A DNA stretch of 63,278 nucleotides, filler included, from Reclinomonas americana ATCC 50394 (Eukaryota), in NCBI GenBank assembly GCA_048213135.1. It is 17 parts of 17 records of this genome, joined end to end, with 100 filler letters (N's around TTAATTAATTAA, not from the genome) between each part and the next. Parts side by side here need not be neighbours in the genome. Positions count along the whole stretch, not along the records: positions 16,899 to 30,140 come from AFZH01023130.1; 16 more parts are not named here. One strand, given 5' to 3'. The position numbers and the translations under genes were made by a program. Positions 1-30,344 of this stretch are shown here, one piece after another. Below the pieces are notes generated by a model, which saw nothing but the letters and a program-made list of their open reading frames with translations, was not told where the DNA came from and ran no database searches. How positions within the stretch are numbered: the first letter of the stretch is position 1; the number at the start of each line of letters is the position of its first letter.

Positions 1-1620
1 CGCCGAGTAGAACATGGTCAACATGTTGGTGACAGCAGCGGTGTTCCATCCGCTAATGTCACCGTTGAACGCCGTCGCCCCCTTGAACATGCTCGCCATG
101 TTGGTGACAGCAGCGGTGTTCCACCCGCTAATGTCACCGTTGAATGCCGTCGCTCCCTGGAACATGGTCGACATATCGGTAACGGCAGCGGTGTTCCATC
201 CAACAATGTTCTGGTTGAAAGCCGTCGCCCCATAGAGCATGCTCGCCATGCTGGTGACAGCAGCGGTGTTCCACCCGCTAATGTTCTGGTTGAACGCCGT
301 TGCGCCACGGAACATGTACGACATATCGGTAACGGCAGCAGTGTTCCATCCGCCAATGTTACCGTTGAATGACGTTGCCCCGTAGAACATGCTCGACATG
401 TTCGTGACGGCAGCGGTGTTCCACCCGCTAATGTTCTGATTGAATGCCGTCGCCCCGTTAAACATGCTTACCAAGCTCGTGACGGCAGCCGTGTTCCATC
501 CGCCAATGTTCTGGTTGAACGCCGCCGCCCCATAGAACATGCTCGACATGGTGGTGACAGCAGCAGTATTCCATCCGCCAATGTTCTGGTTGAACGCCGT
601 CGCCAACTTGAACATGCTCGACATGGTGGTGACGGCAGCAGTATTCCACCCGCTAATGTCACCGTTAAAAGCCGTCGCCCCGTTGAACATGTACGACATG
701 TTGGTGACGGCAGCAGTGTTCCATCCATTACAGTTCTGGTTGAACGCCGTCGCCCCGTTGAACATGTACGACATGTTGGTGACTGCAGCAGTGCTCCACC
801 CGCTAATGTCACCGTTGAAAGCCGTCGCCCCGCTGAACATGAACGACATGTTAGTGACGGCAGCAGTGTTCCATCCACTAATGTTCTGACTGAACGCCGT
901 CGCCCCGTTGAACACGCTCGACATGTTGGTGACAGCAGCAGTGTTCCATCCGCCAATGTTCTGGTTGAACGCCATCGCCCCATTGAACATGCTCGTCATG
1001 CTGGTGACGGCAGCGGTGTTCCATCCGCCAATGTTCTGGTTGAATGCCGTCGCCCCATTGAACATGGTCGACATGGTGGTGACGGCAGCGGTGTTCCATC
1101 CGCCAATGTTCTGGTTGAACGCCGTCGCCCCGCTGAACATGCTCGACATATTGGTGACAGCAGCAGTGTTCCACCCGGTAATGTCGCCGTTGAAAGCCGT
1201 CGCCCCCTGGAACATGGCCGACATGTTGGTGACGGCAGAAGTGTTCCATGCGCCAATGTTCTGGTTGAACGCCGCCGCCCCATTGAACATGTTCGTCATG
1301 GTGGTGACGGCAGCGGTGTTCCATCCGCCAATGTTCTGGTTGAACGCCGCCGCCCCATTAAACATGCTCGCCATGGTGGTGACGGCAGCAGTGCTCCACC
1401 CGCCAATGTTCTGATTGAACGCCGCCGCTCCGTAGAACATGCCCGCCATGGTAGTGACGGCAGCAGTGCTCCACCCGCCAATGTTCTGATTGAACGCCGC
1501 CGCCCCGTAGAACATGCTCGACATGTTGGTGACAGCAGCAGTGTTCCATCCGCCAATGCTCTGGTTGAACGCCGTCATCTGGAACATGCTCGTCATGTTG
1601 GTCACCGTGGAAACGTCCCA
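1..1620 (-). repeat. 75-bp coding tandem repeat (~21 units)
   Basis: Period of 75 nt (gaacatg...gtgacggcagcggtgttccatccgccaatgttctggttgaacgccgtcgcccc), in frame on the minus strand. Two unit types: FNQNIGGW and FNGDISGW. Confidence 0.95.
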
Positions 1621-2575
1621 GTTCCAGTTAGCTCCCGCGCCCGTCAACAAAGTGCAGCCCGAAAACGTGCTAGCTAGACTACTAGCGTTGGCTAGGTAGG
1701 GTATGTCGGTGGCTGTGACTTGTAAATTGGCACAACCGGCGAATGCGCTGCTCAGGTCGGTAAAGGCCACATTGCCCCACTGACTGATTCTGGTCAGCTT
1801 CAGCTGATCACCACCGCTGTTGAACTTGAGACCCGCAAACTTGCCCACAATCGTCACAGTGTACGTGCCACTGGCGGCGTACGTCTTCGTCACCGTACCG
1901 GTGGCCACTTGCGAGCTTCCATCGCCCCAAAACACTCTGAAATTGTTGGTTGCGCCGCCAGCCACTGGCAGCTGCAACTGGTTGCTGGCAGTCCCCGCTT
2001 TGGTGGTGTCGAAAACCAAGACGTGGCCAACGGTGCGCGCAGTTGTTTCGTCAGACGCCACCGTCAGCGTCACCGAGGCCGTGGCCGTGTCGATGCCGTC
2101 AGTAGCACGATAGTCAAAGCTCCGCACGACGCCTGCGGTTGGCGCCGTTACGTCCAGCCGCTTGTCGCTGCGTCGTGTGACAACGCTGCCGTCGGCCAGA
2201 GTTGCCGTGCTGCCTGTGCTTGGCAGATTGAAGACCGTGCCCCCGAATGCCGTATCGATCACCGCCGTGACCGCCAGGCCCACCCCGGTGTCGTTGGCAA
2301 GCACGTTGACCACCATCGGCACACCCGCGATAAGCGTCGCCGCATCCGCCACCGCGAGCACCGCGCGCACAGTGACGGGGCGAGCTCCACTCGCAAAAGA
2401 TGACGACTCTGTGGTGGAGTTCTCTGAGCCAGGAACCACCCCCACATGCTGCAGGAAACAGAGACTCACCCACAGTAGCGGACTGATGTTGTGGTGTGTG
2501 CGGCAGCGCCGACACGGCAGCGCAGGCGGTCAGCAGCACGAGAGAGCTCATCAAGAAGACTTGCACCAGTGCCAT
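1..2575 (-). CDS. Secreted DUF285/BspA-like surface repeat protein: signal peptide, Ig-like domain, PKD-like domain, >=21 25-aa repeats; 3' end runs off the window
   Basis: ATG at 2575 (MALVQVFLMSSLVLLTACAAVSA, hydrophobic signal). GT-AG intron 2469-2409, then an open frame to base 1: VNVLANDTG...SFDYRATDG (Ig-like), WGDGSSQ...TYAASGTYTVTI (PKD-like), ISQWGNVAF, then repeats MFNGATAFNQNIGGWNTAAVTNMSS. Confidence 0.9.
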
Positions 2576-3057: not shown

Positions 3058-3766
3058 ATGTCTGGAGCCTCGGCCACTCGCTCCTACTGGGACGACGGCG
3101 AGGTCGAATCACTGGCCACACACACCGCCTCCGCCGCCGCACCATCCTCCTCCTCCTCTCACTCCTCGTACAATGCACTGCGCAAGTCTATTGTGGGCCA
3201 CGCGTGTCGCGTTCCCTCTCCACACGCCGCACTCGGCAACTCGCGTCAGCAACTGTACATGGACTGGACGGCGTCGGGTCGCTCGGTGCATGCGATTGAG
3301 CGCTTCCTCGCGGAGAATGTGTTGCCGACGTATGGAAACACACATACTACGGCCTCCCATTGTGGGTTGCAGGTGAGTGGAAAGGGCAAAGGGAGGGAGG
3401 GAGGGGAGAGAGAGAAGGGAGGGAGAGAGAAGAGAAGGATGAAGATCGACTCATACTCTCCCTCTCTCACACACATCCTGTCCACACCCATCCTGTGCTG
3501 CTCAAGCTCTCTTTCTCGCNNNNNNNNNNNNNNNNNNNNNNNNNNNNNNNNNNNNNNNNNNNNTTAATTAATTAANNNNNNNNNNNNNNNNNNNNNNNNN
3601 NNNNNNNNNNNNNNNNNNNTCTCTTGCTTGAAGGATGGTGACTGAAGGCTTGAGAAGCATGCAGTTTGGGGAGCACAGAGAAGCAAGAAGAGTGGCGGAA
3701 GAAGAGAGTGAGTGAAAGAGGGAAGCAGAGAGAGAGAGAGAGAGAGAGAGAACTCATGCTCTCTCT

Positions 3767-3798
<32 letters not shown>

Positions 3799-6700
3799 AC
3801 GGATCATGACTGAAGGATAAGCATGAGAGGGGAGCTGGAGAAGGATGATGACTGAAGGCCTGAGAATCACGCTGGGGGGTGAAGAGCGAGTGCGTTCGTG
3901 AGAGAGTGAGTACCTCACTCACCCCATCCACTCTCTCTTCTCTTTCCCCCCTCTTCGTCCAGTCCACCTGCTTCCGCGAGGAGGCACGACAGATCATTGG
4001 CCGTGCGATGAACGCACGCATTCAGTACACCGACGCCCACTCGGACTGCGTGCTCTTTGTGGGCACGGGAGCCACGGCGGGCAGCAACCGACTCGTGCAC
4101 ATTCTCGGCCTCCACGCTCCGGTGCCTGCAGAGCAGCAGCGTGCTGTGGTCTTTGTGGGACCGCATGAGCATCACAGCAACGAGTTGCCGTATCGCGATG
4201 CACCCGGCTGCGATGTGGTGCGAGTGCCGGAGGATGTGCACGGCAATGTGGATCGCGCGGCGCTGCAGCGCCTGCTGGAGCAGTACAGTGAGCGGCCGCT
4301 GAAGATTGGTGCCTTCTCCGCGTGCTCCAACATTACGGGTGTGTGTGCCGACGTGGACGCGCTGGCCGTGCAGCTGCACTTGGCCGGAGCGCTGGCCGTT
4401 TTTGACTATGCGTGCGCGGCGCCGCACATGGCGGTGGATGTGAACACGGCGCACATGTCAATGCATCCGTCGCGACACGACTACGGCGAGGCGCTCGGCA
4501 CCGAGCTGGAGGAGCAGGCGGCGGCGAATCCGTCGCTCCTGCGCAAAGATGCCGTGTTTCTTTCGCCACACAAGTTTGTGGGCGGCCCGGGCACTCCCGG
4601 TGTTCTGTTGCGTTTTCCCCCCTCAAATTGCTTGTGCTATACGTGTCTCACCTCTGTGTTGTACTCGCAGTGTCCTCAAGCGCGCTCTTTTGCTCGGCCG
4701 CGATCAGCAACCCTCGGCAGCCACTGGTGGCGGCACCGTGTTCTTTGTCACCGACCACTCGCATCGCTACTTGAAGAACGCAGAGGAGCGTGAAGAGGCC
4801 GGCACACCCGACGTGGTTGGCGCCGCGCGCTGCGGCCTCGTCTTCCAGTTGCTGCAGTCGATGCCCGGTGGGGCGGCGGCCATGGAGGCCCGCGAGGCGG
4901 AAATCCTGCAACGCGTCGACGCCCGCCTGCGCGCTCATCCGCACATTGTGTGTCTCGGTCCGGCCGCCGACTCCAGCAAGACGAGACGTGTACCGGTGGT
5001 GTCGTTCCTCGTGCGCGCCCCGGCACCCAGTCGACGCTTCCTGCACTACCAGTTTGTGTGCTCGCTGCTCAACGACGTGTTCGGCATTCAGTCGCGCGGC
5101 GGCTGCGTGTGTGCCGCTCCCTACGGTCTCTCTCTCCTCGGCATTCCGCCGGCGGTGGCCGACACCATTGAGCGCACGTTGGTGGACGGTCTGGCGGAAC
5201 CGCTGCGGCCGGGCTTCACGCGTGTCAGTTTTCCGTTCTTCATGTCGGACGCCGAGGTCGATTACGCCATTGATGCGATCGTCGCCATTGCGGAGGATGG
5301 CTGGCGTTTGATGCCCGAGTACCGCTCCAATGCACGCACCGGTGCCTTCAAGCACCGCTCGCGTGCCACCCGCTTCCCGGAACGTCTGTGGCTGGCCCAA
5401 TTCGCACTCGACGACTCAGCGTCACCACCAGCACCTCTGGCGGCAGAGGTGGACGACGCCACATACGAGGCGACACTGCGTGAGCAGCTGGCCGATGGCA
5501 CCGCTCTTTTGCAGGCCGGTGCGTCAATGGAGAGTGATCACACGGCGGTGGCTGAGCCGGATGTGTGTGCGCCGTCCATTAGGTGGTGGATGACGCCGGG
5601 CGAGGCCAGACTGCTGTTGAGTGACCGACTGGCGGTGAACAGCGATGAGGAGGAGGCGTGGATGGTCGGTGTCATGTGTCCGCGTGCGTATGTCGCACAG
5701 GCAACTGGAGAAGCAGCATCGTCATCCAGCGCAGGAGGAGCTGCAGCGGCAGCCGCGAGTCCGAACGGTGACAAGGGGTCTGATGGATCGGGCGCGTTCT
5801 GCCCGATGATCACTCCCTCGGCTCGTGCGGCGGCCACGCAGCACCTGGCGACCATGATCGATGACCTGATCGTGTCGACCAAGGCCACCGTGGGCTCCTC
5901 GCTGCGCCGTGTACCGCCGCGCAAGCTGTACAGGATTGTGGTCGAGGCCGTCACCGTCTTCAACATGATCAAGGACGGCGATCGTGTGCTGCTCGGTCTG
6001 TCCGGCGGCAAGGACTCGCTGGCACTACTGCACATTTTACTGGAGATGCAGCGCAAGTCGGCGTTGCGGTTTGAGGTCTGTTGACGCCGAGTGATGAGGA
6101 GGAGAGATGTGTCGCTGTGTGCTCACCATGTGTTGTGTGTTGCGTCGCCGCAGCTCGGTTGCGCCACTGTCGATCCGGGCGATCAGTCGGCCTTCAACCC
6201 GCGACCGCTGTGCCGCTACGTGGAGGCTCTCGGCGTGCCGTACTTTTATCTGGAGCAAGATATTTATGGGGCGGCTGCCGGCGGCTCCATGCGTGGCGAA
6301 TCGATTTGTGCATTCTGTTCGCGGATGAAGCGCGGTTCGTTGTATTCATGTGCGCGACGCCACGGATACACGGTGCTCGCACTGGCGCAACATCTGGACG
6401 ACTTTGCGGAAAGCATGTTCATGTCGGTGTTCCGCAACGGCCTGCTGCGCACGATGAAGGCCAATTATCTCGAGAAGGGCGGCGACGTGCGTGTCATTCG
6501 GCCGCTGTGCTTTGTGCGCGAGCATGCCACCAAGGAGTTTGCGTACTCGTCGGGCTTGCCGGTGATTCCCGACAACTGCCCCGGCTGCTTCGAGGGCCCG
6601 AAGGAGCGTGAGCGCGTCAAGAAGCTCCTGAAGCGCGAAGAGGCGCAACTCGGCGGCGGCCACCTGTTCGGCTCCATTCGTCGGGCCATTCAGCCACTCA

Positions 6701-6909
6701 TGGCACTTGGCGAGCTCGAGTGGCATGACGACATGGGCCAGCTGGGCAACATGGCAGGCGAGGCGGTGTTGCTGACAGTGCGTCATCCGGCGACTGTGGC
6801 GGCGGCGGCGGCGGCGGCGGCGGCAGTGGTGGGAGAGGTGAATGGGCACGTCGCGATCGGTGAAGCATCATCGTCGTCGTCGGTGGCGGTGGAAGGTGGA
6901 GAACGATAG
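3058..6909 (+). CDS. Fusion of a class-V aminotransferase/cysteine desulfurase-like domain with a TtcA-like tRNA 2-thiolation (PP-loop) domain
   Basis: Exons 3058-3372, 3963-4606, 4671-6075, 6154-6909. N-half motifs: YMDWTASGR, YGNTHT, EHHSN, DYACAAP, SPHKFVGGPG (PLP Lys), SRGGCVCAAPY (catalytic Cys region). C-half motifs: GLSGGKDS, CAFCSRMKRG, LAQHLDD, IRPL, CPGC. The desulfurase C-terminal part and the PP-loop lie in the same exon and frame. Confidence 0.92.
3520..3619. other. Assembly gap with artificial six-frame-stop linker (first of 16)
   Basis: N-run + TTAATTAATTAA + N-run. Others begin near 7598, 15186, 16799, 30141, 31412, 34622, 37086, 39575, 43017, 44654, 46340, 49480, 51281, 56449, 60505. 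Confidence 0.97.
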
Positions 6910-16386: not shown

Positions 16387-16928
16387 CTCTAACAACACAG
16401 CACACATGCAAGAAGAGAGAGTGAGAGAGTGGGGGGAGAGTGGGGGAGAGAGAGACATGTCGCTTTGGTGGTGGTGGCGCATAAGGAGCGAGTGTGCGTG
16501 TGAGTGTGGATGCAGTGTGAGACAAGTCAACCTGCGGCGCTGATGGGATCCGTGACGCTGCTCATCAGCTGGAGACTTGAATAGTGAGGAACGTCGCGAG
16601 TGGGACTGTACAGTGCGACGTCGTATGCATGAGTTTCTTTTGTCTTGTCGGAGGGTGAATGCAGAACGAGTGGGGCGCGAGCCCGGCTACACAACCGCAC
16701 CTCTAGCTAAACTTTTGCCGCAAGCTATTGACGGAATCGCGCAGCAATGAGTGTCATCTGCAGCTGCAGATCCGGAATATATATACTATATCTGTGGCNN
16801 NNNNNNNNNNNNNNNNNNNNNNNNNNNNNNNNNNNNNNNNNNTTAATTAATTAANNNNNNNNNNNNNNNNNNNNNNNNNNNNNNNNNNNNNNNNNNNNCA
16901 CATGTTTTGCACTTGCAAAACACAGTCA

Positions 16929-19900
16929 TCAAGGGCTCACGGCGGCCGCAGCCGACGGTGGCGCCAGCACAATCGTGTGATATCCGTACTCGTCTCCCGA
17001 GTCGAAACGGGTGATGGACGTGCGACAGAGTGGGCACTCGCCGCGTCGCTCGACAACTTGCTGCGCACAGTTGCGGCACATCACCTCGTGGCCGCACGGA
17101 CGCAATCGAGTGTCGCGCACATCGTAACAGAGAACGCAGGCGCGACGGCACGACAACGCAGTGAGATCGCGCATCTCCGTCACCAGTTCGTCGGCACTCG
17201 GGCGGCGGTTAGGTCGATAGTCGACGCAGCTGTTTCTCGAATCATGAGGGACGACCTACACAGTGCGCGTATGCAACGGGGCTGATGCTTACTACTCACC
17301 GCATGGCCAAGCGCACAAGACGGCGACAGACGGATGTGGGCCATTCTCGGCCGACCGCGGTGTCGGCCAGCTGCACAGCGGACTCATCGAGTTTCGCCGC
17401 GTCGTCGTCCTCCACCATCGCCTCGATCCACTTGTGTACCTCGGCAATTGGCTGACCGGAGAACAGCGCAGAATGCCACGCAGTGCCTGCGGATCGGCAT
17501 AGTTGTGGTCGCCTGCAAACTGCACCGAGAGGTGTGTCTGCTTGTCGCCACACCCCCATGATGAGGACATTATCGGTGGGAAGACGAGGGACAGGAAAGG
17601 AGACTCACCCCGCCGGTGCGGAACCAGTGCGCGATTCCCAGGTCCGAGATGCATGCCTGACCCCGCTCGTCAAACAGAATGTTGGCTGGCTTCAGGTCGC
17701 GGTGAATGACTGCGAATCATGGTTATCAAGCGAGGTCAATCACTCACAACCGAGTTCACGGAGACTCACCATTCTGGGTGAAGGCGAGAACAGAATGCAG
17801 TGACAGTGAGAGGGAAGGAGAGTGAGAAACGAAGTCAACAGCAAGCTGCACAACGACACCACAAACCATCCTGTACAACAAGAAGAAAGGATGAGAAACG
17901 ACCACATGCACCTGACTTCTTATTGCAGCAGCTGCCTCACCTGTGCAATGCCGCCACGATCTCCGAACAACGAAGCAAACATGTCATCCGTTCCTCAATG
18001 GCCATGACAGGCAATCCGAGCGCTTGATACTCCAACAACCGGTGCTCGAGGTTGTGCTCACTTGTCAATGATCGAGCGAAGAACAGCACATCAGCAACAA
18101 CGAATCAAAAGAACTGCATGTGACCAACACCAACCTCATGGCCTCCAGCACAATGCACTTTTCTCCACGGTCCGATTCGGCGAAGCCAATCATGCGCACC
18201 ACACCAGGCACCGTCACACTCTTCAGTTTCTCCAACTGCATTCCAGCAAGTTACGATAAACACACAGGGGGATGATCACCTGGTCTCCGCACACACGCAG
18301 TGCTCACCTCATTGGAAAACGACTCAATGCACCACGGCGCATCGCTGTCGAACACCTTGACGGCCACCTGCTGCTCCTTCCATGTGCCAGAAAACACGCT
18401 CCCTTGTCCGCCCGTGCCAAGACGACGAGCAAAGCCATTTGTCATGGCGCCGATTTGCTCCCAGGTGAACGCCGTGAGCGGAACTGTAGTACTGCTGGTC
18501 AGCGAAGAAACGCACAAGCAGTCTTTGCAACACACTCAGTCGTGCTCACCACGATGGTTGAGCTCGTGCTGCGCGGTGGCCAAGTCTGCGGCCAGTCGCT
18601 TTGCGCGGTCGTATTCTTGCTGGCGTTGCTCGTCCATTCGCTCCAAGGAGACGCGAAGAGCCGCACATTCCTCACGCAAGCGCTGGATAGCGGCCTCTTC
18701 CTGCGGTTGCCCATGCGCCCTCTGCTCCTCCAGCTCCTGCTGCAGGCGCGCAACGTTCGCTGCGCTTGCGCGATCGGCCGCTTGTGGAGCCTCCAATTGC
18801 GCGGTCAACTGCTCGACTCGCTGTCGCTGCTCCTCCGCCTCGCGTCGCGATTGCGTAACGGTGGCCTCGTGTCGCTGCACCAGCTGCTGCGCTGCATCCA
18901 CTTGGGCGGCCCGCTCGCGGACCGCCGCCTGTTGCTCTTCCACCTCGCGCGGCGGTTGCGCGATGGTTCCTTCGTGCTGCTGCGTCGTCGCCCGCTGTAG
19001 CGCGAGGACACGCTGCAGCTGGGCAATGGTGGCCTGTGATTGCGACTGCTGGCTGCGAAGCGTGGTCACCTCCTGCGTCTGCCGCTGCACGAGGCGCTGC
19101 TGCTCGGTCAAGTCGTGTTGCAGTTGTGCGTTTGCTGCCTCCGGCTGCTGCTCGCGGGCCGAGTTCACCGGTGGCGGCTGGTTGGTGCACAGAGAGGTCA
19201 GTGTTGGGCAGGCATCGGCACTTGTCGAGATTCTCTCACCGGAAAATGCACTGGTGGTGAAGCCGATGCAAAAAACGCAGAGGAACCTGTAGTGGCGGAT
19301 GAACAACAAGAGTGTTGAGGATGAATTAAAAGAGTGCGTCACAGACGTACCAGATGGGGAAGTTATTGAAAAAACCTTGCGGAGTGTCGCAAGGGCTGCG
19401 AAGGCGCTGATTATACGGTCGGCAGTACGCATGGTGGCTTCGCGGTCCGGTCCCAGCTCGCGACGACGCAGTGGCAACACCTCGAAGACATCCAACGCCT
19501 CCTCCAGATCCAACCCGCCTGCTCTGGCCACCGCCGTTGCCATGATTTGCATGCTCACCAGCCAGTCCAGGTGATCCTTGTCGACCAGCAATTCAACCTT
19601 CCGGCGCAAAATGTCGCGCATAATCCGAATCGACTCCTCGCACTCCTTGTTGTCATCGAGCGCCTGTGCCAAGTGGTGCCACGTATTCAACGCATCCTCG
19701 ACGTCCTCCTTGGCCCCATAGCGCTCCTGCTTCTCCGCCGTGTCACGCAGAAGTGGAATGGCCTCGCGATGCCGCCCGAGCTGCCACAGCGCATTGCCCA
19801 TGCTGGAAGCCACAATCAATGTCTCCTTGTGAGTCGCACCCGACACGCGCTTTTTCCTCTCCAGCACATCCTCGAACACCGGCAATGCGCTCTGCGCATC

Positions 19901-20239
19901 TCCCGAATTCAAGAGTGCATTCGCGTAGTTGTGTGCACACGCAAGAGTCCATGCATCATCGGGGCCGCGCAAGTCCTCAAAGTCTCGCATGCAGCGAGCG
20001 AGGAGAGGTGCCGCGGTGGCATAGTCACCACTGCGGCAGTGCCGTCGGGCCTCATCGTACTGCCGCTTGACCTCCTCGAAAGTCGGCGCATCACGACCTT
20101 CGCTCCGTTCACCGTCGGGGCTGCGCATGTCCTCAAAATCTCGCCAGCAGGTACCATACAGGCGCGCGGCGGCGGCATAGTCACCACTGTGTAAAAGCTG
20201 CAGGGCCTCATCATTGACCTCCGCGAAAGTCCGACGCAT
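16929..20239 (-). pseudogene. TPR-coiled coil-RLK/Pelle-like kinase-RING, copy 1 (frameshifted)
   Basis: Same exon structure as copies 2 and 3 and HRD intact. A 43-nt deletion near 17467 removes PSADVYCLGLILLQ (subdomain IX) and shifts the frame. Confidence 0.82.
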
Positions 20240-21161
20240 GACCTCCGCGCTCCGACGCAAGACGACTCGCCTGTCGGACAACGATGCATTGTGGCGGACA
20301 GCAAACTTCCTGTGGTTGTTGCCCCCTTATTACACACTGTATGCACTGCAATATCCAAACTCTTTACGCAGATCACGCGAGGGGTGTGGAAGAAGTGTTC
20401 ATGCAGTCCAATGCAAGATGATCGACGTCGATCGCGATCGCGAGTCTGCTCACGTCGCTTCGTTGAGACAGCGAGCGACGTCGTTCCCATTCTATGCAAT
20501 GCTTGGATATTATCGAAACAGTTGCCGTCGGTCTTGCCTGCCAACAAATATGTTTGAGATCCTGTTCTTGCCAGATCGCCACAACACCCACTCGCCATCA
20601 TCCTTCGCCGCCACAGAAAATCGCTCTCACGGTCTTGCCTAGTCGCATGCTCATATGTCACCGGCGACCAGTTGCTGTCGCGCGTTCGTCTCCCTCGATC
20701 GCTCACGATCTTGCTGCGCTCTCTGCATGCAAGTCTCTTTCGATCGCTGAGTCGAGAAAGCGAAAACTGTGGAGTATAGCATAGGTCTCTTCATCGATTG
20801 ACAATAATGTCTCGTGCATGTGCACCTTTACCTCGCGTGCATTCAGCCTCCCTCGTTCGCACCTCACGATCGTGTTCCTCTCGCACGCACTGCGATCTTC
20901 ACTCGCCATATCGCAGCCTCTCTCACTCAGACTCTCCAGAGTCTCTGCACCTGTGCACTCCCTATTTTCGATCGCTCTTTGAGGGCCAAAGAGAAAGAGT
21001 GAAAGGGGAGAAATACTGGTCATCTCCATCGATACAGCCCCACAGCTTCTTGCTTGATCGCTCCTCACACTCTCCCTTCTTTATCCCTCTCTCTCCTCTC
21101 GCTCCCTCTTCCCTTCTTGCGCACACAATCACAATCTCCATCGGCCGATCTGACTTGTCAG

Positions 21162-21290
21162 TGCCACTACGCCTGTAACAACAACTACCCGGCCGTGGCC
21201 GCTGGCACTTACCTCGGCAACGGCAACTGCTGCGGCAGCTGCAGCGGTCCCACTTGCAGCCAGTCTCCCTCTGACAGCTGCACGCAGTAG
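21162..21290 (+). other. Orphan Cys-rich terminal exon (42 aa, 7 Cys)
   Basis: ctgacttgtcag acceptor, then CHYACNNNYPAVAAGTYLGNGNCCGSCSGPTCSQSPSDSCTQ*. A frameshifted paralog lies at 25681-25803. No upstream exon was identified. Confidence 0.55.
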
Positions 21291-21358
21291 ACGTGCACGT
21301 GTGATTCTTGCCGAATAAAATCTGTAAATACATGTCTTGCACTTGCAAAACACAGTCA

Positions 21359-24300
21359 TCACGGGCTCACAGCTGCCGCAGCCGACGGTGGCGCCAGCAC
21401 AATCGTGTGATAACCGTACTCGTCTCCCGAGTCGAAACGGGTGATGGACGTGCGACAGAGAGGGCACTCGCCGCGCCGTTCGAGCACTTGCTGTGCACAG
21501 TTGCGGCACAACACCTCGTGGCCGCACGGACGCAGTCGAGTGTCGCGCACATCGTAACAGAGAATGCAAGCGCGACGGCATGACAACGCAGTGAGATCGC
21601 GCATCTCCGTCACCAGTTCGTCGGCACTCGGGCGGCGATTGGGTCGATAATCGACACAGCTGTCTCTCGAATCATGAGCGACGACCTACGCAGTGCAAAC
21701 AAGCACGGGGCTGATGCATTCTCACCGCATGGCCAACCGCACCAGACGGCGACAGACGGATATGGGCCATTCCCGGCCAACTGCGGTGTCGGCCAGTAGC
21801 ACAGCGGCCTCATCGAGTCTCGCCGCGTCGTCGTCCTCCACCATCGCCTCGATCCACTTGTGTACCTCGGCAATCGGCTGACCGGAGAACAGTTGCAGCA
21901 GAATGAGTCCAAGGCAGTACACGTCGGCAGTTGGGTGCAGAATGCCACGCAGTGCCTGTGGATCGGCATAGTTGGGGTCGCCGGCAAACTGCACCGAGAG
22001 GTGTGTCTGCTTGTCGCCACACCCGTGAGGACATTCTCGGTGAGCAGGCGAGGGAAAGAGAGTGCATACTCACCCCGCCGGTGCGGAACCAGTGCGCGAT
22101 TCCCAGGTCCGAGATGCATGCCTGACCACGCTCGTCAAACAGGATGTTGGCCGGCTTCAAGTTTCGGTGAATGACTGCGAATCATGGTGAATAAGCGACG
22201 AGGTGACATCACTCACAACCGAGTTCACGGAGACTCACCATTCTGGGTGAAGGCGAGAGAACAGAATGCAGTGACAGTGAGAGGGAAGGAGAGTGAGAAA
22301 CGAAGTCAACAGCAAGCTGCACAACGACACCACAAACCATCCTGTACAACAAGAAGACACGATGAGAAACGAGCACATGCACCTGACTTCCCACTTCACC
22401 AGCTGCCTCACCTATGCAATGCCGCCACGATCTCCGAGCACCGAAGCAAGCATGTCATCCGTTCCTCAATGGCCATGACGGGCAATCTGAGTGCTTGATA
22501 CTCCAACAACCGGTGCTCGAGGTTGTGCTCGCTTGAGAATGATCGAGAGAAGAACCGCACATCAGCAACAAACGAGCCAGAAGAACTGCATGCAACCGAG
22601 AGAATTCGATATCCACCAACCTCATGGCTTCCAGCACAATGCACTTTTCTCCACGGTCTGACTCGGCGAAGCCGATCATGCGTACCACACCAGGTACAGT
22701 CACACTCTTCAGTTTCTCCAACTGTACCCAGCAAGAAGCGATAAACACACATGCGATGATCACCTGGTCTCCCCACACGCAGCGCTCACCTCATTGGAGA
22801 ACGACTCGATGCACCACGGCGCATCGCTGTCGAACACCTTGACGGCCACCTGCTGCTCCATCCATGTGCCAGAAAACACGCTCCCTTGTCCACCCGTGCC
22901 AAGACGACGCGCAAAGCCATTTGTCATGGCGCCGATTTGCTCCCAGGTAAAGGCCGTGAGCGGAACTGGAAGGTTGCTGGTCAGTAGCGGCTCACAAGCA
23001 ATTATCGCCACACACTCACTTATACTCACCACGATGGTTGAGCTCGTGTTGCGCGGCGGCCAAATCAGCGGCCAGTCGCTGTGCACGGTCGTATTCTTGC
23101 TGCCGCTGCTCGTCCATTCGCTCCAGGGAGACTCGAAGAGCCGCACATTCCTCACGCAGGCGCTGGATAGCGGCCTCTTCCTGCGGTTGCCCATGCGCCC
23201 TCTGCTCCTCCAGCTCCTGCTGCAGGCGCGCAACGTTCGCTGCGCTTGCGCGATCGGCCGCTTGTGGAGCCTCCAATTGCGCGGTCAACTGCCCGACTCG
23301 CTGTCGCTGCTCCTCCGCCTCGCGCCGCAATTGCGCAACGGTGGCCTCGTGTCGCTGCACCAGCTGCTGCGCTGCATCCACTTGGGCGGCCCGCTCGCGG
23401 ACCGCCGCCTGTTGCTCTTCCACCTCGCGCGGCGGTTGCGCGACGGTTCCTTCGTGCTGCTGTGTCGTCGCCCGCTGTAGCGCGAGGACACGCTGCAGCT
23501 GGGCAATGGTGGCCTGTGATTGCGACTGCTGGCTGCGAAGCGTGGTCACCTCCTGCGTCTGCCGCTGCACGAGGCGCTGCTGCTCGGTCAAGTCGTGTTG
23601 TTGTTGTGCGTTTGCTGCCTCCAGCTGCTGCTCGCGGACCGAGTTCACCGGTGGCGGCTGGTTGGTGCACAGAGAGGTCAGTGTTGGGCAGGCATCGGCA
23701 CTTGTCGAGATTCTCTCACCGGAAAATGCACTGGTGGTGAAGCCGATGCAAAAAACGCAGAGGAACCTGCAGTGGCGGATGAACAACGAGTGTGGAGGAT
23801 GAATTAAAAGAGTGCGGCACAGACGTACCAGATGGGGAAGTTATTGAAAAAACCTTGCGGAGTGTCGCAAGGGCTGCGAAGGCGCTGATTATACGGTCGG
23901 CAGTACGCATGGTGGCTTCGCGGTCCGGTCCCAACTCGCGACGACGCAGTGGCAACACCTCGAAGACATCCAACGCCTCCTCCAGATCCAACCCGCCTGC
24001 TCTGGCCACCGCCGTTGCCATGATTTGCATGCTCACCAGCCAGTCCAGGTGATCCTTGTCGACCAGCAATTCAACCTTCCGGCGCAAAATGTCGCGCATA
24101 ATCCGAATCGACTCCTCGCACTCCTTGTTGTCATCGAGCGCCTGTGCCAAGTGGTGCCACGTATTCAACGCATCCTCGACGTCCTCCTTGGCCCCATAGC
24201 GCTCCTGCTTCTCCGCCGTGTCGCGCAGCAACGCAATGGCCTCGCGATGCCGCCCGACCTGCCTCAGCGCATTGCCCATGCTGGAAGCCGCAATCAATGT

Positions 24301-24708
24301 CTCCTTGTGAGTCGCACCCGACACGCGCTTTTTCCTCTCCAGCACATCCTCGAACACCGGCAATGCGCTCTGCGCATCTCCCGAATTCAAGAGTGCATTC
24401 GCGTAGTTGTGCGCACACGCAAGAGTCCATGCATCATCGGGGCCGCGCAAGTCCTCAAAGTCTCGCATGCAACGAGCGAGGAGAGGTGCCGCGGTGGCAT
24501 AGTCACCACTGCGGCAGTGCCGTTTGGCCTCATCGTACTGCTCCTCGAAAGTCGGCGCATCACGACCTTCGCTCCGTTCATCGTCGGGGCCGCGCATGTC
24601 CTCAAAATCTCGCCAGCAGGTACCATACAGGCGCGCGGCGGCGGCATAGTCACCACTGTGTAAAAGCTGCAGGGCCTCATCATTGACCTCCGCGAAAGTC
24701 CGACGCAT
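21359..24708 (-). CDS. TPR-coiled coil-RLK/Pelle-like pseudokinase-RING, copy 2
   Basis: Exons splice in frame. The catalytic loop reads IHRNLKPAN (CAC CGA AAC near 22161-22169). C-terminal CILC..PCGHEVLCRNC..CPLCR. Confidence 0.82.
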
Positions 24709-25865
24709 GACGACTCGACAGTCGGACAACAACATGAAGGACGATGCATTGTGGCGGACAGCAAACTTCCTGTGGTTGTTGCCCCCTTATTACACACTGC
24801 ATGCACTGCAATATCCAGACTCTTTGCGCAAATCACGCGGGATGTGGAAAAAGTGTTTGTGCAGTCCAGTGCATGACGATCGCGATCGTCGACGGCGAGT
24901 ACTACGTCTGCTCATGTTGTGTCGTTGCGACAGCTCTCGGCGAAAGAATCCACCAACTACGCAATGCATGGATATTATCGAAACAGTTGCCGTCGGTCTT
25001 TCCTCCCTCGATGTGCCATACCAAACATGTTTGAGATGCCAGATCTCCGCAGCGCGAACATGTTGCAACCAATCGCCAGCATCCCCACCACAGAAGCTCG
25101 ATCTCACACTCTTTCCTGGTCGCTTGTTCATATCTCACTGGCGATCATTTACTGTCACCCGTAGTCTCCCTCGATCGCTCGCGTGCACCACAATGTCTTG
25201 CGTGTGTTCTCTGCATGCAAGTCTCTTTCGCTGAGTTGAGAGAGTGAAAACTGTGGTGTAGAGCAGAGGGAGTCTCCATCTATCGACCATAAAGTCTCGT
25301 GCATGTGCTCCTTTATCTCTTCCCTTCAGCCTCCCTCGTTCGCACCTAGCTTGACGATACTCTCGCGCGCACTGCAATGTTCACTCGCCATATCGCAGCC
25401 TCTCTCACTCAGTTCCCCTCGCACTGTAACGCAGTCTCTATGCCTGTGCACTCCCTATTTGCCTTTCCTCGATTGCTTTTTTGCACTATGATTGGGTGCC
25501 AGAGAGAAAGAGAGAAAGGGGAGAGAATGAGGCGCGATGAAGAGAGGGAGAGATACTGATCATGTCTCTACAGCCTCACAGCTTCTTGCTTGATCGCTTC
25601 ACTCTCTCCCTTCTTTATCCCTCCCTCTCCCCTTCTTGCGCACACAATCACAGTCTTTATCAGCCGATCTGACTTACCAGTGCCACACTACGCCTGCAAC
25701 AACTGCGCTTCTGTGGCCGCTGACACTCACCTCGGCAACGGCAACTGCTGCGACAGCTACAGTGGTGCCACCTGCAGTCAGTCTCCCTCTGACAGGTTGC
25801 ATAACAGACGTGATTCTTGTCAAGATGAAATCTGTAATTACATGTTCTGCTTGTTAACACAGTCA

Positions 25866-28800
25866 TCACGGGCTCACAGCTGCCGCAGCAGACGGTGGCG
25901 CCAGCACAATCGTGTGATAACCGTACTCGTCTCCCGAGTCGAAACGGGCGACCGCAGTGCGACAGAGAGGGCACTCGCCGCGCCGTTCAAGCACTTGCTG
26001 CGCACAGTTGCGGCACATCACCTCGTGGCCGCACGGACGCAGTCGAGTGTCGCGCACATCGTAACAGAGAACGCAGGCGCGACGGCACGACAATGCAGTC
26101 AGATCGCGCATCTCCGTCACCAGGTCGTCGGCACTCGGGCGGCGATTGGGTCGATGGTCGACGCAGCTGCAGCACCTCGAATCATGAGGGACGACCTACG
26201 CAATGCTGATATGCAACGGGGCTGATGCTTACTACTCACCGCATGGCCAATCGCACAAGACGGCGACAGACGGACGTCGGCCATTCCCGACCGACCGCGG
26301 TGTCGGCCAGTAGCACAGCGGCCTCATCGAGTCTCGCCACGTCGTCGTCCTCCACCATTGCCTCGATCCATTTGTGTACCTCGGCAATTGGCTGACCGGA
26401 GAACAGTTGCAGCAGAATGAGCCCGAGGCAGTACACGTCGGCACTCGGGCGCAGAATGCCACGCAGCGCCTGTGGATCGGCATAGTTGTGGTCGCCGGCA
26501 AACTGCACCGACAGGTGTGTCTGCTTGTCGCCACACACCCGTGAGGACATAATCGGTGGGAATGTGAAGGACGGGAGCGTGCACACTCACCCCGCCGGTG
26601 CGGAACCAGTGCGCGATTCCCAGGTCCGAGATGCATGCCTGGCCGCGTTCATCAAACAGGATGTTGGCGGGCTTCAAGTCGCGATGAATGACTGCGAATC
26701 ATGGTTGACAAGCGAGGTAACAACACTCTCAACCGAGCACACGGAGACTCACCATTCTGGGTGAAGGCGAGAACAGAAAGCAGTGACAGTGAGAGAGATG
26801 GAGAGTGAGTGAGCAATATCATCACCAAGTTGCACAGCAGCAACACAAACCATCCTGCACAACAAGAAGAAACGATGAGAAACGAGCACATGCACCCGAC
26901 GTCCTGTTGCCTCACCTGTGCAACGCTGCCACGATCTCCGAGCATCGAAGCAAGCATGTCATCCGTTCTTCGATGGCCATGACGGGCAATCCGAGTGCTT
27001 GATACTCCAACAACCGGTGCTCGAGGTTGTGCTTGCTTGAGAATGATCGAGAGAAGAACAGCACATCAGCAACAAACGAACCAGAAGAATTGCATGTAAC
27101 CAAGAAAACTCGATCTCCACCAACCTCATGGCCTCCAGCACAATGCACTTTTCTCCGCGGTCTGACTCGGCGAAACCAATCATGCGTACCGCACCAGGCA
27201 CCGTCACACTCTTCAGTTTCTCCAACTGCACCCAGCAAGAAACGATAAACACACAGGGGGATGATCACCTGGTCTCCTCACACGAAGACTCTCACCTCAT
27301 TGGAGAACGACTCGATGCACCAAGGCGCGTCGCTGTCGAACACCTTGACGGCCACCTGCTGCTCCATCCACGTGCCAGAAAACACGCTCCCTTGTCCGCC
27401 CGTGCCAAGACGACGAGCGAAGCCATTTGTCATGGCGCCCACTTGCTCCCAGGTAAAGGCCGTGAGCGGAACTGCAAAACGCTGGTCAGCGGGCCGTGCA
27501 CAAGCAGTCTTTGCCACACACTCACTCTCACTCACCACGGTGGTTGAGCTCGTGCTGCGCGGCGGCCAAATCAGCGGCCAGTCGTTGTGCGCGGTCGTAT
27601 TCTTGCTGGCGCTTCTCGTCCATGCGCTCCAAAGAGACGCGAAGAGCCGCACATTCCTCGCGCAGGCGCTGGATAGCGGCCTCTTGCTGCGGTTGTCCAC
27701 GTGCCCTCTGCTCCTCCAGCTCCTGCTGCAGGAGTGCAACATTCGCTGCGCTTGCGCGACCGGCCTCTTGTGCTGCATCCAACTGAGCGGTCAGTTGCTC
27801 GACTCGCTGTCGTTGCCCCTCCGCCTCGCGCCGCAGTTGCGTGATGGTGGCCTCGTGTTGCTGCACCAGCTGCTGTGTTGCATTCATCTGCGTGGTCCTC
27901 TCGCGGATAGTGGCTTGATGTGTCTCCAGCTCGCGCCGCAGTTGCGCGATGGTGACCTCGTGTTGTCGCGCCTGGTGCTGTGCTGCCTCCACCTGGGCAG
28001 TCTGCTCGCGGATAGTGGCTTGCTGATCGTTCTTCTCGCGTTGCAGTTGCGCAATGGTGGCATCGCGACGCTGCACTTGCTGCTGCGCTGCATCCACTTG
28101 GGCGGCCCGCTCACGGACCGCTTCCTGTTGCTCTTCCACCTCGCGCGGCGGTTGTGCGACGGTTCCTTCGTGCTGCTGCGTCACCGCCAGCTGTTGCGCG
28201 AGGTCACGCTGCAGCTCGGCGATGGTGGCCTGCGACTGAGATTGCTGGTTGCGAAGGGCGGTCAGCTCCTGCGTCTGCCGCTGCACGAGGCGCTGCTGTT
28301 CGGCCACATGGCGTTGCAGTTGTGCGTTTGCTGCCTCCAGCTGCTGCTCGTGGCCCAGCGGCTGGTCGGTGCACAGAGAGGTCAGTGTTGGGTAAGCATT
28401 GGCACTTGTCAGTTTTCTCTCACCGGAGAACGCACTGGCGGAGGAGTGGATGCGGACGCAGAGGAAGCTGCAGTTGCGGATGATCAACGAGTGTGGAGGA
28501 TGAAACAAAAGAGTGCGTCACAGACGTACCGGATGGGGAAGACGTCGAAGAAGCCTTGAGGAGAGCGGCCAGCTTCGCGCGGGTGTTGGTAATGCCGTCG
28601 GCTGTGCTTTTGGTGTGTTCGTGGTTCGGCCCCATCACGCGGCGACGGAGTGTCAACACCTCCTCGAAGATCTCCAACGCCTCCTCCAGGTTGGCCAAGC
28701 CGCCTGCGTTGAACAGCGTCACTCCCATGTTATGCATGCTCGCCAGCGTGTCTGGGTGATCCTCGCCCAACACTTCACGACTCCGGAGCACAAGGTCGCG

Positions 28801-29292: not shown

Positions 29293-29993
29293 GATGACTC
29301 GCCTGTCGGACAACAAGAAGGACGATGCATTGTGGCGGACAGCACCAGCTTCCTGTCGGTGTTGCCCCACTGCATGCACTGCAATATTCACTCTTTGCGC
29401 AGATCACGAGAGGGATGTGGAAAAAGTGTTTGCGCAGTCCAATGCAAGACGATCGACGTCGACCGCGAGTCTGCCCATGTTGTGTCGTCGGGACAGCAAG
29501 CGCTCTCGGCGAGAGAATCCACCAAGTACGCAATGCATGCATGTTATCGAAACAGTAGCCGTCGGTCTTTCCTGCCTCGCTGCGATGTGCCATCGCAACT
29601 CATGTACGGCTCTGCAGCCTCGCATGACGATGAAATCGGCATGCGAGAGACCATTCACCTCTTGCCCCTGCCCGGTGGTCACGAACACGTACAACACCCA
29701 CTCGCCATCATCCTTTACCACCACAGAAACTCGCCTTCGCTTTGCAATGTAAGGCACGCAATGAAACACTCTCACACAAAAGAATACCAATCACGAGCGC
29801 AGGGGCGATCCACTGCGCCGTCCACTCATATGCACCGTCTCCCGCCGCAGTACCTCCAACAGCGTGTTCGCCGACTCGACAATCTGCGGCACAGGAAGAG
29901 GGTTGGACGCGTCGAAAGCGAACAGCTCGATTCACAGAGTCTTACTCTCACGATCGATCGTTCAGCAACAGCATCTCGCTCATACAAGACCGC

Positions 29994-30082
<89 letters not shown>

Positions 30083-30344
30083 CTACGTCTCGTACTCGTC
30101 TCTACTCTCTCGTCTCTACTCTCGTCTCTACGTACTACGTNNNNNNNNNNNNNNNNNNNNNNNNNNNNNNNNNNNNNNNNNNNNTTAATTAATTAANNNN
30201 NNNNNNNNNNNNNNNNNNNNNNNNNNNNNNNNNNNNNNNNACGTTACCGTTACCTTCCTTACCGAACGTACGTACTACGTTCCGTTACGACGAACCAACG
30301 ACGACTACTCCGTCGTCCTACTAACTAACGAACCGACCGCACCC

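What the first reader, a model, noticed from the sequence alone, without database searches (positions are those of the whole stretch)
17770..17870. Two consecutive 4-nt micro-exons build kinase subdomain VI, conserved in all three copies
Seen on the minus strand: CAC AG| then ..tacag|GATG|gtttgt.. then ..cccag|AATG|gtgagt.. then |TC ATT CAC CGC GAC. Using both gives ALHRMNVIHRDLK; skipping either or both shifts the frame. Positions: 17867-70 and 17770-73; 22338-41 and 22239-42; 26851-54 and 26753-56. The splice flanks are conserved while intron interiors diverge. Inference: a possible splicing switch giving truncated TPR-coil isoforms, and a structure gene predictors would miss.
Basis: seen in the sequence. 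Interest (0 to 1): 0.72.

Follow-up and report, generated by a model that had tools for sequence, protein, structure and literature searches.

The report
Two probable 4-base exons in kinase gene
Three tandem copies of a kinase gene from an unidentified eukaryote almost certainly need two tiny 4-base exons, each flanked by short introns, to keep their reading frame, which is a rare but known kind of gene structure that still lacks RNA proof here.

Summary
On the minus strand, all three tandem copies of a TPR + coiled-coil + Ser/Thr kinase + RING gene have ..CAC AG|GTGAGG, then cag|GATG|gtttgt, then cccag|AATG|gtgagt, then cag|TC ATT CAC. All sit at the stated coordinates.

- **Frame:** the exons on both sides are under strong purifying selection, in frames that differ by 2 nt mod 3.
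- **Spacing:** the Pfam kinase profile needs exactly four residues, which is 8 nt, between ..LH and IHRD.
- **Splice signals:** GATG + AATG is the only bridge whose donors all look like this genome's real donors. The three resulting introns (60-95 nt) fit the local range of 59-122 nt.
- **Conservation:** the two micro-exon blocks vary in 2 of 54 columns, against 46 of 161 for intron interior.
- **Rarity:** no other site in the window has such signals.

Limits: I found no RNA data, orthologue or annotation, so use of the exons in mRNA is inferred (about 0.7). Two single 8-nt exons remain possible. The "splicing switch" idea has no evidence beyond the fact that skipping gives early stops. Copy 1, where the finding was anchored, also carries a frameshifting 43-nt deletion, and copy 2 reads HRN instead of HRD.

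Exons of 1-15 nt, including adjacent pairs, are already documented in plants and fungi. This is a new member of a known kind.

The parts
17941..18060 (-). Copy 1, kinase exon A (subdomain V-VIa, ..SEIVAALH + AG), ends in phase 2
17871..17940 (-). Copy 1, intron a (70 nt): GTGAGG..CTCAT branch-like motif 22 nt from the end..pyrimidine tract (0.82)..TACAG
17867..17870 (-). Copy 1, micro-exon 1, GATG (completes Arg, gives Met)
17774..17866 (-). Copy 1, intron b (93 nt): GTTTGT..CTCAC..pyrimidine tract (0.82)..CCCAG
17770..17773 (-). Copy 1, micro-exon 2, AATG (gives Asn, starts Val)
17710..17769 (-). Copy 1, intron c (60 nt): GTGAGT..CGCAG
17609..17709 (-). Copy 1, kinase exon B (TC + [33 protein letters not shown]), catalytic loop and DLG motif; Pfam Pkinase positions 120-149
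17300..17540 (-). Copy 1, exon K5 with a 43-nt deletion (subdomain IX lost, frame shifted): copy 1 is probably a pseudogene or carries an assembly error
22412..22531 (-). Copy 2, exon A
22338..22341 (-). Copy 2, micro-exon 1, GATG (intron a 22342-22411, 70 nt)
22239..22242 (-). Copy 2, micro-exon 2, AATG (intron b 22243-22337, 95 nt; intron c 22175-22238, 64 nt)
22074..22174 (-). Copy 2, exon B; reads IHRNLK (catalytic Asp replaced by Asn)
26916..27035 (-). Copy 3, exon A
26851..26854 (-). Copy 3, micro-exon 1, GATG (intron a 26855-26915, 61 nt)
26753..26756 (-). Copy 3, micro-exon 2, AATG (intron b 26757-26850, 94 nt; intron c 26692-26752, 61 nt)
26591..26691 (-). Copy 3, exon B (IHRDLK); copy 3 is the only copy with no visible defect from kinase exon K1 to the stop after the RING
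25866..27471 (-). Copy 3, kinase + RING part of the gene as modelled: K1 27296-27471, K2 27125-27225, A, m1, m2, B, K5 26240-26523, K6 25866-26166 (zf-C3HC4_3 RING and stop)
58736..58905 (-). Exon of a paralogous kinase on another contig of the window. It reads ..LAHLHRHRIVHRDVK.. with no intron, and fixes the spacing (His at Pkinase profile position 115, HRD at 121-123)

Best explanation
Each copy of this TPR + coiled-coil + kinase + RING gene has three short spliceosomal GT-AG introns packed into 8 coding bases, just before the catalytic loop. These are introns a, b and c, of 61-70, 93-95 and 60-64 nt. Between them lie two constitutive 4-nt exons, GATG and AATG.

In the mRNA, exon A (..CAC AG) + GATG + AATG + exon B (TC ATT..) reads ..ALH-R-M-N-V-IHRDLK... 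This supplies the four residues that link helix E to the HRD catalytic loop.

A 4-nt exon is too small for factors to occupy its acceptor and its donor at once, so the three introns are presumably removed one after another. Each would be recognised on its own (intron definition) by its own donor, branch-like CTCAT/CTCAC motif and acceptor. Introns a and b also carry unusually strong pyrimidine tracts.

Shown: the sequence, the frames, selection on both sides, the spacing requirement, signal quality, conservation and rarity. Inferred: that these exons are in the mRNA, the order of intron removal, and constitutive use.
For: 1. Frame. With both micro-exons, copies 2 and 3 give one open frame from the coiled coil through the kinase and RING to a shared stop.

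2. Selection. Between copies 2 and 3, dN/dS is 0.048 for exons upstream of the junction and 0.123 downstream. The two wrong downstream frames give 2.3 and 2.7. Both sides are therefore translated, in frames offset by 2 nt mod 3.

3. Spacing. Exon B's first full codon (Ile) aligns to Pkinase profile position 120. The intron-less paralogue places the His of LH at position 115. Four residues, which is 8 nt beyond AG..TC, are therefore needed.

4. Donors. Ten introns that I inferred elsewhere (5 in the family, 5 in the paralogue) are 59-122 nt long, all have G at +5, and score 7.7-12.0 bits. The micro-exon donors score 7.6 (ATG|GTTTGT) and 9.9 (ATG|GTGAGT) in all 3 copies. At thresholds of 7.5 and 5 bits, the 4+4 path is the only frame-restoring path in copy 1.

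5. Other intron features. The pyrimidine content of acceptors a and b is 0.71-0.82, against 0.41-0.82 in the training set. A CTSAY motif lies 22 nt (intron a) and 34-36 nt (intron b) from the acceptor in 3 of 3 copies; the motif is present in 8 of 10 training introns.

6. Conservation. 2 of 54 columns vary in the micro-exon blocks, against 46 of 161 in the bridge interior (p = 3e-5). The ordinary splice signals of the five other introns vary in 29 of 115 columns.

7. Chance. A path with exactly 8 nt arose in 8 of 3000 shuffles and any frame-restoring path in 99 of 3000. No other such site exists on either strand of the window, for exon sizes of 1-8 nt.

8. Residues. Among 35 distinct catalytic-loop contexts with the same spacing, taken from 25 of the 71 kinases examined, the residue three before HRD is G 21, K 4, N 3, R 2, L 2, H 1, Q 1, E 1 and never V. 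The 4+4 model gives N; both single-exon rivals give V.

9. Precedent. Exons of 1-15 nt and adjacent pairs have been validated by RNA in plants and a fungus.
Against: - No RNA evidence: no RNA run was listed, and no protein, locus or contig from this or a close organism was found.
- Conservation rests on three close paralogues (exons 6-7% diverged). Patchy gene conversion could mimic constraint.
- The 10 'training' introns were inferred by me from frames and homology, not from RNA.
- My acceptor matrix was uninformative. It gave exon B's own acceptor -1.7 to -2.1 bits, m2's 1.5, and m1's 3.5 to 7.0.
- Exon A's donor (7.4, and 6.2 in copy 2) scores slightly below the training range.
- Intron c has no exact CTSAY motif in 0 of 3 copies.
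- Protein-level scoring barely separates the models. An ad hoc kinase HMM gives 181.1 bits for 4+4, 180.5 and 178.3 for the two single 8-nt exons, and 177.0 for a two-residue deletion.
- Thresholds were chosen at the observed values.
- Copy 1 is frameshifted downstream and copy 2 lacks the catalytic Asp, so part of the family may be decaying.
Confidence: 0.7

Rival explanations
1. A single 8-nt micro-exon bridges the gap. It would be either GATGGTTT (donor GTGGTG / GTGTTG, giving ..LHRMVFIHRD) or AATGGTGA (donor GTCTCC, giving ..LHRMVIIHRD), with two introns instead of three.
For: Both are stop-free, insert exactly 8 nt and exist in all 3 copies. They use the same strong acceptors. The ad hoc kinase HMM scores them within 0.6 and 2.8 bits of the 4+4 model.
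Against: - Their donors score -4.6 to -5.0 and -9.1 bits, against 7.7-12.0 for the 10 training donors, and lack the G at +5 seen in 10 of 10.
- Each needs one intron of 153-169 nt, outside the local 59-122 nt range.
- Each leaves the perfect conservation of the other block, and a consensus ATG|GTGAGT donor, unexplained.
- Both put Val at the position three residues before HRD, where 0 of 35 comparable kinase contexts have it.
Confidence: 0.08
2. The frame is restored in another way: a different or longer internal exon, a non-canonical intron, or recoding. One non-canonical option shifts the boundaries by one base to give ..LHRVIHRD.
For: One search lists 30, 33 and 21 stop-free GT-AG paths in copies 1, 2 and 3. 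One is a 5-nt exon TCTCC present in all copies; another is an 11-nt exon in copies 1 and 2 (donor 2.6 bits). The one-base-shifted join still scores 177.0 bits as a kinase.
Against: - The 11-nt exon has no GT donor in copy 3.
- The 5-nt path did not rank among the eight best in any copy and uses the AG inside GTGAG as acceptor.
- All other paths need donors of 2.6 bits or less.
- The shifted join needs non-GT-AG ends and deletes two residues from a spacing that the paralogue and the profile keep.
- None of these explains the two conserved blocks.
Confidence: 0.07
3. The 224-237 nt stretch is one intron and the junction is simply out of frame. The family would then produce only truncated TPR-coil-half-kinase products or be a set of pseudogenes, and the micro-exon look-alikes are fortuitous.
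For: Copy 1 has a frameshifting 43-nt deletion and copy 2 has HRN for HRD. No expression evidence exists (blank).
Against: - Downstream exons B-K6 show dN/dS of 0.08-0.12 in the kinase/RING frame and above 2 in the other frames. That would not be expected if they were untranslated.
- A single intron of 224-237 nt would be about twice the longest of the 10 local introns.
- Such paired signals arise in 8 of 3000 shuffles, and nowhere else in the window.
Confidence: 0.1
4. One reading: the two micro-exons are alternatively skipped as a regulated switch. This would give truncated TPR + coiled-coil proteins without a catalytic loop or RING, or transcripts degraded by nonsense-mediated decay.
For: Skipping either exon gives a stop after 7 codons and skipping both gives a stop after 13, upstream of two more junctions. 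Tiny exons are prone to skipping or to flanking-intron retention in other organisms (passages of PMC8831610).
Against: There is no isoform evidence at all. Strong, well-conserved signals point to efficient constitutive inclusion. This reading adds to the best explanation rather than excluding it.
Confidence: 0.12

Closest known systems
Ultra-short coding micro-exons (1-15 nt) of land plants and streptophyte algae, including the adjacent 5-nt + 12-nt pair in a Peptidase M1 gene and the 1-nt exons of APC11 and VPS55 (PMC8831610 and PMC11096116, passages read)
   Same: These are canonical GT-AG micro-exons inside a conserved protein domain. Leaving them out breaks the frame or the domain. Splice signals are strong and conserved. 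Two micro-exons can sit next to each other. De novo annotation commonly misses them.
   Different: [quoted passage not shown] Here there is no RNA and only three close paralogues. Both exons here are 4 nt, the organism is unidentified, and the flanking introns are very short (60-95 nt).
Micro-exons of the short-intron fungus Coprinopsis cinerea: 1,165 gene models with an internal exon of 15 nt or less, and 89 with an exon of 3 nt or less (PMC12230235, passages read)
   Same: This is an intron-rich genome with short introns in which very small exons are frequent. Omitting one creates a premature stop in most cases. The donor pattern here, GTNNGT with G at +5, resembles what I recall for basidiomycete fungi; that pattern is recalled, not tested.
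   Different: Nothing shows that this window is fungal. The nearest relatives of its conserved genes are 44% identical or less and come from assorted eukaryotes. The passages I read do not say whether pairs of adjacent 4-nt exons occur in that fungus.
Three consecutive micro-exons (3, 18 and 22 bp) of human RPS24 (abstracts seen in the listing: PMC12207440, PMC11162997)
   Same: Several tiny exons lie in a row between ordinary exons.
   Different: The RPS24 exons are alternatively used and lie at the C-terminal end of the coding region. Here inclusion looks obligatory for a catalytic domain.
Recursive splice sites (an acceptor immediately followed by a donor, giving a zero-length exon) of long animal introns (recalled from general knowledge, not checked in a paper here)
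   Same: An acceptor and a donor are almost juxtaposed, so the two splicing reactions must happen one after the other.
   Different: Recursive sites leave nothing in the mRNA and serve to remove very long introns. Here 4 nt would be kept at each site and the introns are under 100 nt.

Membership tests
Internal coding micro-exon (15 nt or less) spliced by the major spliceosome | Exon bounded by a canonical acceptor (YAG) and a canonical donor (GT..) of local quality | tested here: met
   The sites read cag|GATG|gtttgt and cccag|AATG|gtgagt in 3 of 3 copies. Donors score 7.6 and 9.9 bits against 7.7-12.0 for 10 local donors. Pyrimidine tracts are 0.71-0.82.
Internal coding micro-exon (15 nt or less) spliced by the major spliceosome | Flanking introns long enough to be spliced in this genome | tested here: met
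   Introns a, b and c are 61-70, 93-95 and 60-64 nt. The 10 local introns are 59-122 nt.
Internal coding micro-exon (15 nt or less) spliced by the major spliceosome | Inclusion needed for the reading frame and for the conserved protein domain | tested here: met
   The flanking frames differ by 2 nt mod 3 and both are under purifying selection. The Pkinase profile needs 4 residues, which is 8 nt. Skipping gives stops after 7 or 13 codons.
Internal coding micro-exon (15 nt or less) spliced by the major spliceosome | Exon present in mature mRNA (junction reads or cDNA) | not testable with these tools
   No RNA holder was listed. No matching protein or contig was found in the collections. No whole genome is held.
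Internal coding micro-exon (15 nt or less) spliced by the major spliceosome | Exon and its signals conserved in homologous genes | tested here: inconclusive
   They are conserved in the three tandem paralogues (2 of 54 variable columns), but no orthologue was found. The more distant paralogue at 58736-58905 has no intron at this place.
Protein kinase domain (Pfam PF00069) | Match to the profile above the curated cut-off, with the catalytic-loop HRD..K..N and DFG-type motifs | tested here: met
   Exon B alone scores 32.5 bits against a cut-off of 31.7 (E = 7.6e-8, profile positions 120-149). The spliced model of copy 3 reads [20 protein letters not shown] and DLG. It scores 181 bits against an ad hoc HMM built from 90 kinase segments. 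Copy 2 has HRN.
Regulated alternative micro-exon (splicing switch) | Both inclusion and skipping isoforms observed, with condition or tissue dependence | not testable with these tools
   No RNA data. Only the consequence of skipping could be computed.
Introner / transposon-derived introns | Intron sequences belong to a repeated family with copies in other genes | tested here: not met
   A sensitive blastn of introns a, b and c against the window found only the three paralogous copies plus short CT-rich low-complexity matches. The three introns do not resemble one another. Only 63 kb could be searched.

The most novel reading that the evidence does not exclude
Three introns were gained within 8 coding bases of the catalytic-loop linker; the paralogue has none there. 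The resulting pair of 4-nt exons would then work as a splicing-fidelity gate. Only transcripts that complete three ordered splicing reactions yield an active kinase-RING protein. Any slip would give a truncated TPR + coiled-coil product or a decay substrate, letting the cell tune the output of a tandem gene family at the splicing step. In the papers I read, the closest reported case is an adjacent 5-nt + 12-nt pair; I did not find a report of two adjacent 4-nt exons.
Probability: 0.1. Interest if true: 0.55.

Novelty: new member of a known kind. Interest (0 to 1): 0.35.

Why it matters
If the model is right, any annotation of this genome that misses the two 4-nt exons will truncate or frameshift a whole tandem family of kinase-RING proteins. 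It would then call them pseudogenes or split genes.

The case also shows how far intron packing can go in a short-intron eukaryote: three introns within eight coding bases. It would make a compact test case for ordered, intron-defined splicing.

It does not reveal a new mechanism. Exons of 1-15 nt, including adjacent pairs, are already documented.

Tried and rejected
**Searches that came back blank**
- RNA evidence: the look-up of sequencing runs with 16899-20400, kind rna: no RNA holder listed. Read laying therefore could not be used.
- Whole genome: none is held for this window.
- Annotated or transcript-derived proteins: exon A as query against longer proteins gave 35 word-sharing candidates, none at E of 10 or below.
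- The TPR frame found only 19 distant, mostly bacterial-type TPR proteins (34% identity or less).
- An exhaustive HMMER search with exon K5 of copy 3 found 63 kinases, all 51% identical or less over short stretches, and no family member.
- Related loci: the RING exon in metagenome contigs matched patterns at 166 stretches, none confirmed. An exact 30-nt stretch of exon B had 0 matches there.
- Earlier findings of this scan: nothing for this genome or sequence. One unrelated giant-virus micro-exon note turned up.
- Rfam on the whole window: 0 matches.

**Organism identity, not resolved**
- The ESM Atlas search and a protein search with the aminotransferase frame gave relatives 44% identical or less, from assorted eukaryotes and bacteria.
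- A full-text search for the spacer motif was uninformative: 80 papers hold the term, 20 were listed, and none explained the assembly.

**Analyses that did not help**
- The acceptor weight matrix built from 10 introns was too noisy to use.
- Protein-level discrimination between bridge models was too weak to decide (0.6-4 bits).
- Introner origin of the three introns: no repeat family in the window.
- GC-AG and other non-canonical donors were looked at by eye only; none looked convincing.

- I did not send a probe spanning the spliced junction to the collections, because it would be a joined sequence. The collections also showed no trace of this organism.
Full report
**1. What is there**

The window is a chain of contigs joined by 100-nt spacers. 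It comes from an unidentified eukaryote with 55.5% G+C and short GT-AG introns. No whole genome is held for it.

The contig at 16899-30140 carries three tandem copies of one gene on the minus strand, 87-92% identical at the DNA level. Each copy encodes TPR_10/TPR_12 repeats, a Gln-rich coiled coil, a Ser/Thr kinase and a C-terminal C3HC4 RING finger.

I read the claimed sites directly and they are exactly as described:
- Exon A ends ..GCA TTG CAC AG|GTGAGG at 17941 / 22412 / 26916.
- GATG lies at 17870-67 / 22341-38 / 26854-51, between ..tgttgt[ag]cag and gtttgt.
- AATG lies at 17773-70 / 22242-39 / 26756-53, between ..ccttcacccag and gtgagt.
- Exon B starts TC ATT CA. at 17709 / 22174 / 26691.

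**2. A bridge of 2 nt mod 3 must exist**

I modelled the kinase part from reading frames and kinase motifs. The exons are K1, K2, A, B, K5 and K6, with five ordinary introns of 64-89 nt in copy 3.

Exon A ends with two bases of a codon and exon B begins with the last two bases of a codon. A direct join is therefore out of frame.

Both sides are nevertheless under strong purifying selection in their own frames. Between copies 2 and 3, dN/dS is 0.048 upstream (CC to A) and 0.123 downstream (B to K6). The other two pairs give 0.03-0.09, and the two wrong downstream frames give 2.3 and 2.7.

With both micro-exons, copies 2 and 3 read as one open frame to a shared stop after the RING.

**3. Exactly 8 nt are expected**

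Pfam aligns the first full codon of exon B (Ile) to Pkinase profile position 120. A paralogous kinase on another contig (58736-58905) reads ..LAHLHRHRIVHRDVK.. with no intron, which places the His of LH at position 115 and HRD at 121-123.

Four residues are therefore needed between ..AALH and IHRD. That is 12 nt minus the AG and TC already present, or 8 nt. GATG + AATG gives R-M-N-V.

**4. Alternatives**

I enumerated every GT-AG path with at most two internal exons of 60 nt or less and introns of 35 nt or more. This gave 30, 33 and 21 stop-free frame-restoring paths in copies 1, 2 and 3.

Three of them insert exactly 8 nt in every copy:
- the 4+4 pair;
- a single GATGGTTT;
- a single AATGGTGA.

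They differ sharply in donor quality:
- Ten introns inferred elsewhere (five in the family, five in the paralogue) all have G at +5 and score 7.7-12.0 bits on a matrix built from them.
- The micro-exon donors score 7.6 and 9.9 bits.
- The rival donors score -4.6 to -5.0 bits (GTGGTG / GTGTTG) and -9.1 bits (GTCTCC).

The rivals also need one intron of 153-169 nt, against a local range of 59-122 nt.

An 11-nt exon (donor 2.6 bits) exists only in copies 1 and 2.

At the protein level the models are nearly tied. An ad hoc HMM built from 90 kinase segments gives 181.1 bits (4+4), 180.5, 178.3, and 177.0 for a two-residue deletion.

There is one small point in favour of 4+4. I examined the 63 nearest kinases from an exhaustive search plus 8 TPR-kinases, and found 35 distinct catalytic-loop contexts with the same spacing, from 25 proteins. 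The residue three before HRD is G 21, K 4, N 3, R 2, L 2, H, Q, E and never V. The 4+4 model gives N; both rivals give V.

**5. Signals and conservation**

Introns a, b and c are 61-70, 93-95 and 60-64 nt long.

Introns a and b end in pyrimidine tracts of 0.71-0.82, at the top of the local range of 0.41-0.82. They carry CTCAT 22 nt and CTCAC 34-36 nt before the acceptor in all three copies. The CTSAY motif is present in 8 of 10 training introns. Intron c has no exact copy of it.

In the three-way alignment, the two blocks from -15 to +8 around the micro-exons vary in 2 of 54 columns. The rest of the bridge interior varies in 46 of 161 (p = 3e-5). The ordinary splice signals of the other five introns vary in 29 of 115.

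**6. Chance**

I shuffled the bridge interior while keeping the outer signals. A frame-restoring, stop-free path with all inner donors at 7.5 bits or more arose in 99 of 3000 shuffles. One inserting exactly 8 nt arose in 8 of 3000. At 5 bits the counts were 488 and 48.

Scanning both strands of the whole window for YAG + 1-8 nt + donor of 7.5 bits or more + pyrimidine tract of 0.7 or more returned only the six claimed sites. The thresholds were set at the observed values, so these figures are somewhat flattering.

**7. What is missing**

No RNA run was listed, so no reads could be laid on the region. No protein, locus or contig from this or a close organism turned up. The organism's lineage stays unresolved, since the best relatives of a conserved gene are 44% identical or less.

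Use of the exons in mRNA, the order of intron removal and constitutive inclusion are therefore inferences. The training introns are also my inferences. My acceptor matrix was useless: it scored exon B's own acceptor at -1.7 bits.

The three copies are close paralogues, so the conservation spans little evolutionary time.

**8. State of the copies**

- Copy 1, where the finding was anchored, lacks 43 nt of exon K5. This removes subdomain IX and shifts the frame.
- Copy 2 reads HRN instead of HRD.
- Copy 3 shows no defect in the modelled part.

**9. Mechanism and the switch idea**

A 4-nt exon cannot hold acceptor-bound and donor-bound factors at once. The three short introns are therefore most likely removed stepwise by intron definition. 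This is inference, in line with the discussion in PMC8831610.

Skipping either micro-exon gives a stop after 7 codons, and skipping both gives a stop after 13. A truncated TPR-coil protein or a decay substrate is therefore the predictable outcome of a splicing error. Nothing indicates regulated skipping, and the strong signals suggest the opposite.

**10. Comparison with what is known**

- In plants, 2,398 micro-exons of 15 nt or less were found in ten species. Most were unannotated. They include 1-nt exons and an adjacent 5-nt + 12-nt pair confirmed by RT-PCR (PMC8831610, abstract and passages).
- The same pair is RNA-seq-verified in Zygnema and was overlooked by de novo annotation (PMC11096116, passages).
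- In the short-intron fungus Coprinopsis cinerea, 1,165 gene models have an exon of 15 nt or less and 89 have one of 3 nt or less (PMC12230235, passages).
- Human RPS24 has three consecutive micro-exons (abstracts in the listing).
- Full-text searches for adjacent, tandem or consecutive micro-exons found 8 papers, of which 5 were listed. In the passages I read, none describes two adjacent 4-nt exons. I did not read supplements, which may hold such cases.

**11. Verdict**

The two-micro-exon model is the best explanation (about 0.7) but is unproven without RNA. It is a new member of a known kind, of moderate to low interest, and matters mainly for annotation.

Noticed in passing
16 places, e.g. 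3520-3619, 16799-16898, 30141-30240: The window is a chain of contigs joined by identical 100-nt spacers (44 N, a 12-nt six-frame stop linker, 44 N). Contig ends often lie in CT or GT microsatellites. The order and adjacency of the pieces may therefore be arbitrary.
   Followed up: partly
17300-17540 (copy 1) versus 21726-22009 and 26240-26523: Copy 1 lacks 43 nt of kinase exon K5. This removes subdomain IX (..PTADVYCLGLILLQL..) and shifts the frame. It is either a pseudogene or an assembly error.
   Followed up: partly
22074-22174 (copy 2, exon B): The catalytic-loop Asp is replaced by Asn (IHRNLK), so copy 2 would be a pseudokinase if expressed.
   Followed up: no
58095-59320, minus strand: A paralogous TKL-like kinase on another contig has no intron at the micro-exon site. 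Its other introns sit at different codons and phases than those of the tandem family, which suggests high intron turnover in this genome.
   Followed up: partly
26524-26526 and equivalents (acceptor of exon K5): There is a tandem acceptor AAG|CAG in all three copies. Either choice keeps the frame and differs by one Gln.
   Followed up: no
1-2529, minus strand: An 843-residue open frame runs off the window start. It has 8 DUF285 (PF03382) repeats (E = 4e-269) and is built on 75-nt tandem units.
   Followed up: no
3864-6906, plus strand: A class-V aminotransferase and a PP-loop (ATP_bind_3) domain lie in one gene. Fused relatives occur in assorted eukaryotes at 44% identity or less, so the organism has no close relative in the protein collection.
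   Followed up: partly
52640-53938, plus strand: A 433-residue frame has a weak tnp2-type transposase match (PF02992, 26.6 bits, below the 28.6 cut-off).
   Followed up: no
20281-20433, 24721-24880, 29302-29462 versus 46090-46265: A stretch of about 150 nt in the 5' part (or just upstream) of each tandem copy has an inverted match of 82-89% on another contig.
   Followed up: no
16899-27690 (kinase parts of the three copies): Synonymous divergence between copies (dS 0.22-0.32) is higher than raw intron divergence (0.13-0.15). The introns may be constrained, or conversion tracts and composition may distort the comparison.
   Followed up: no
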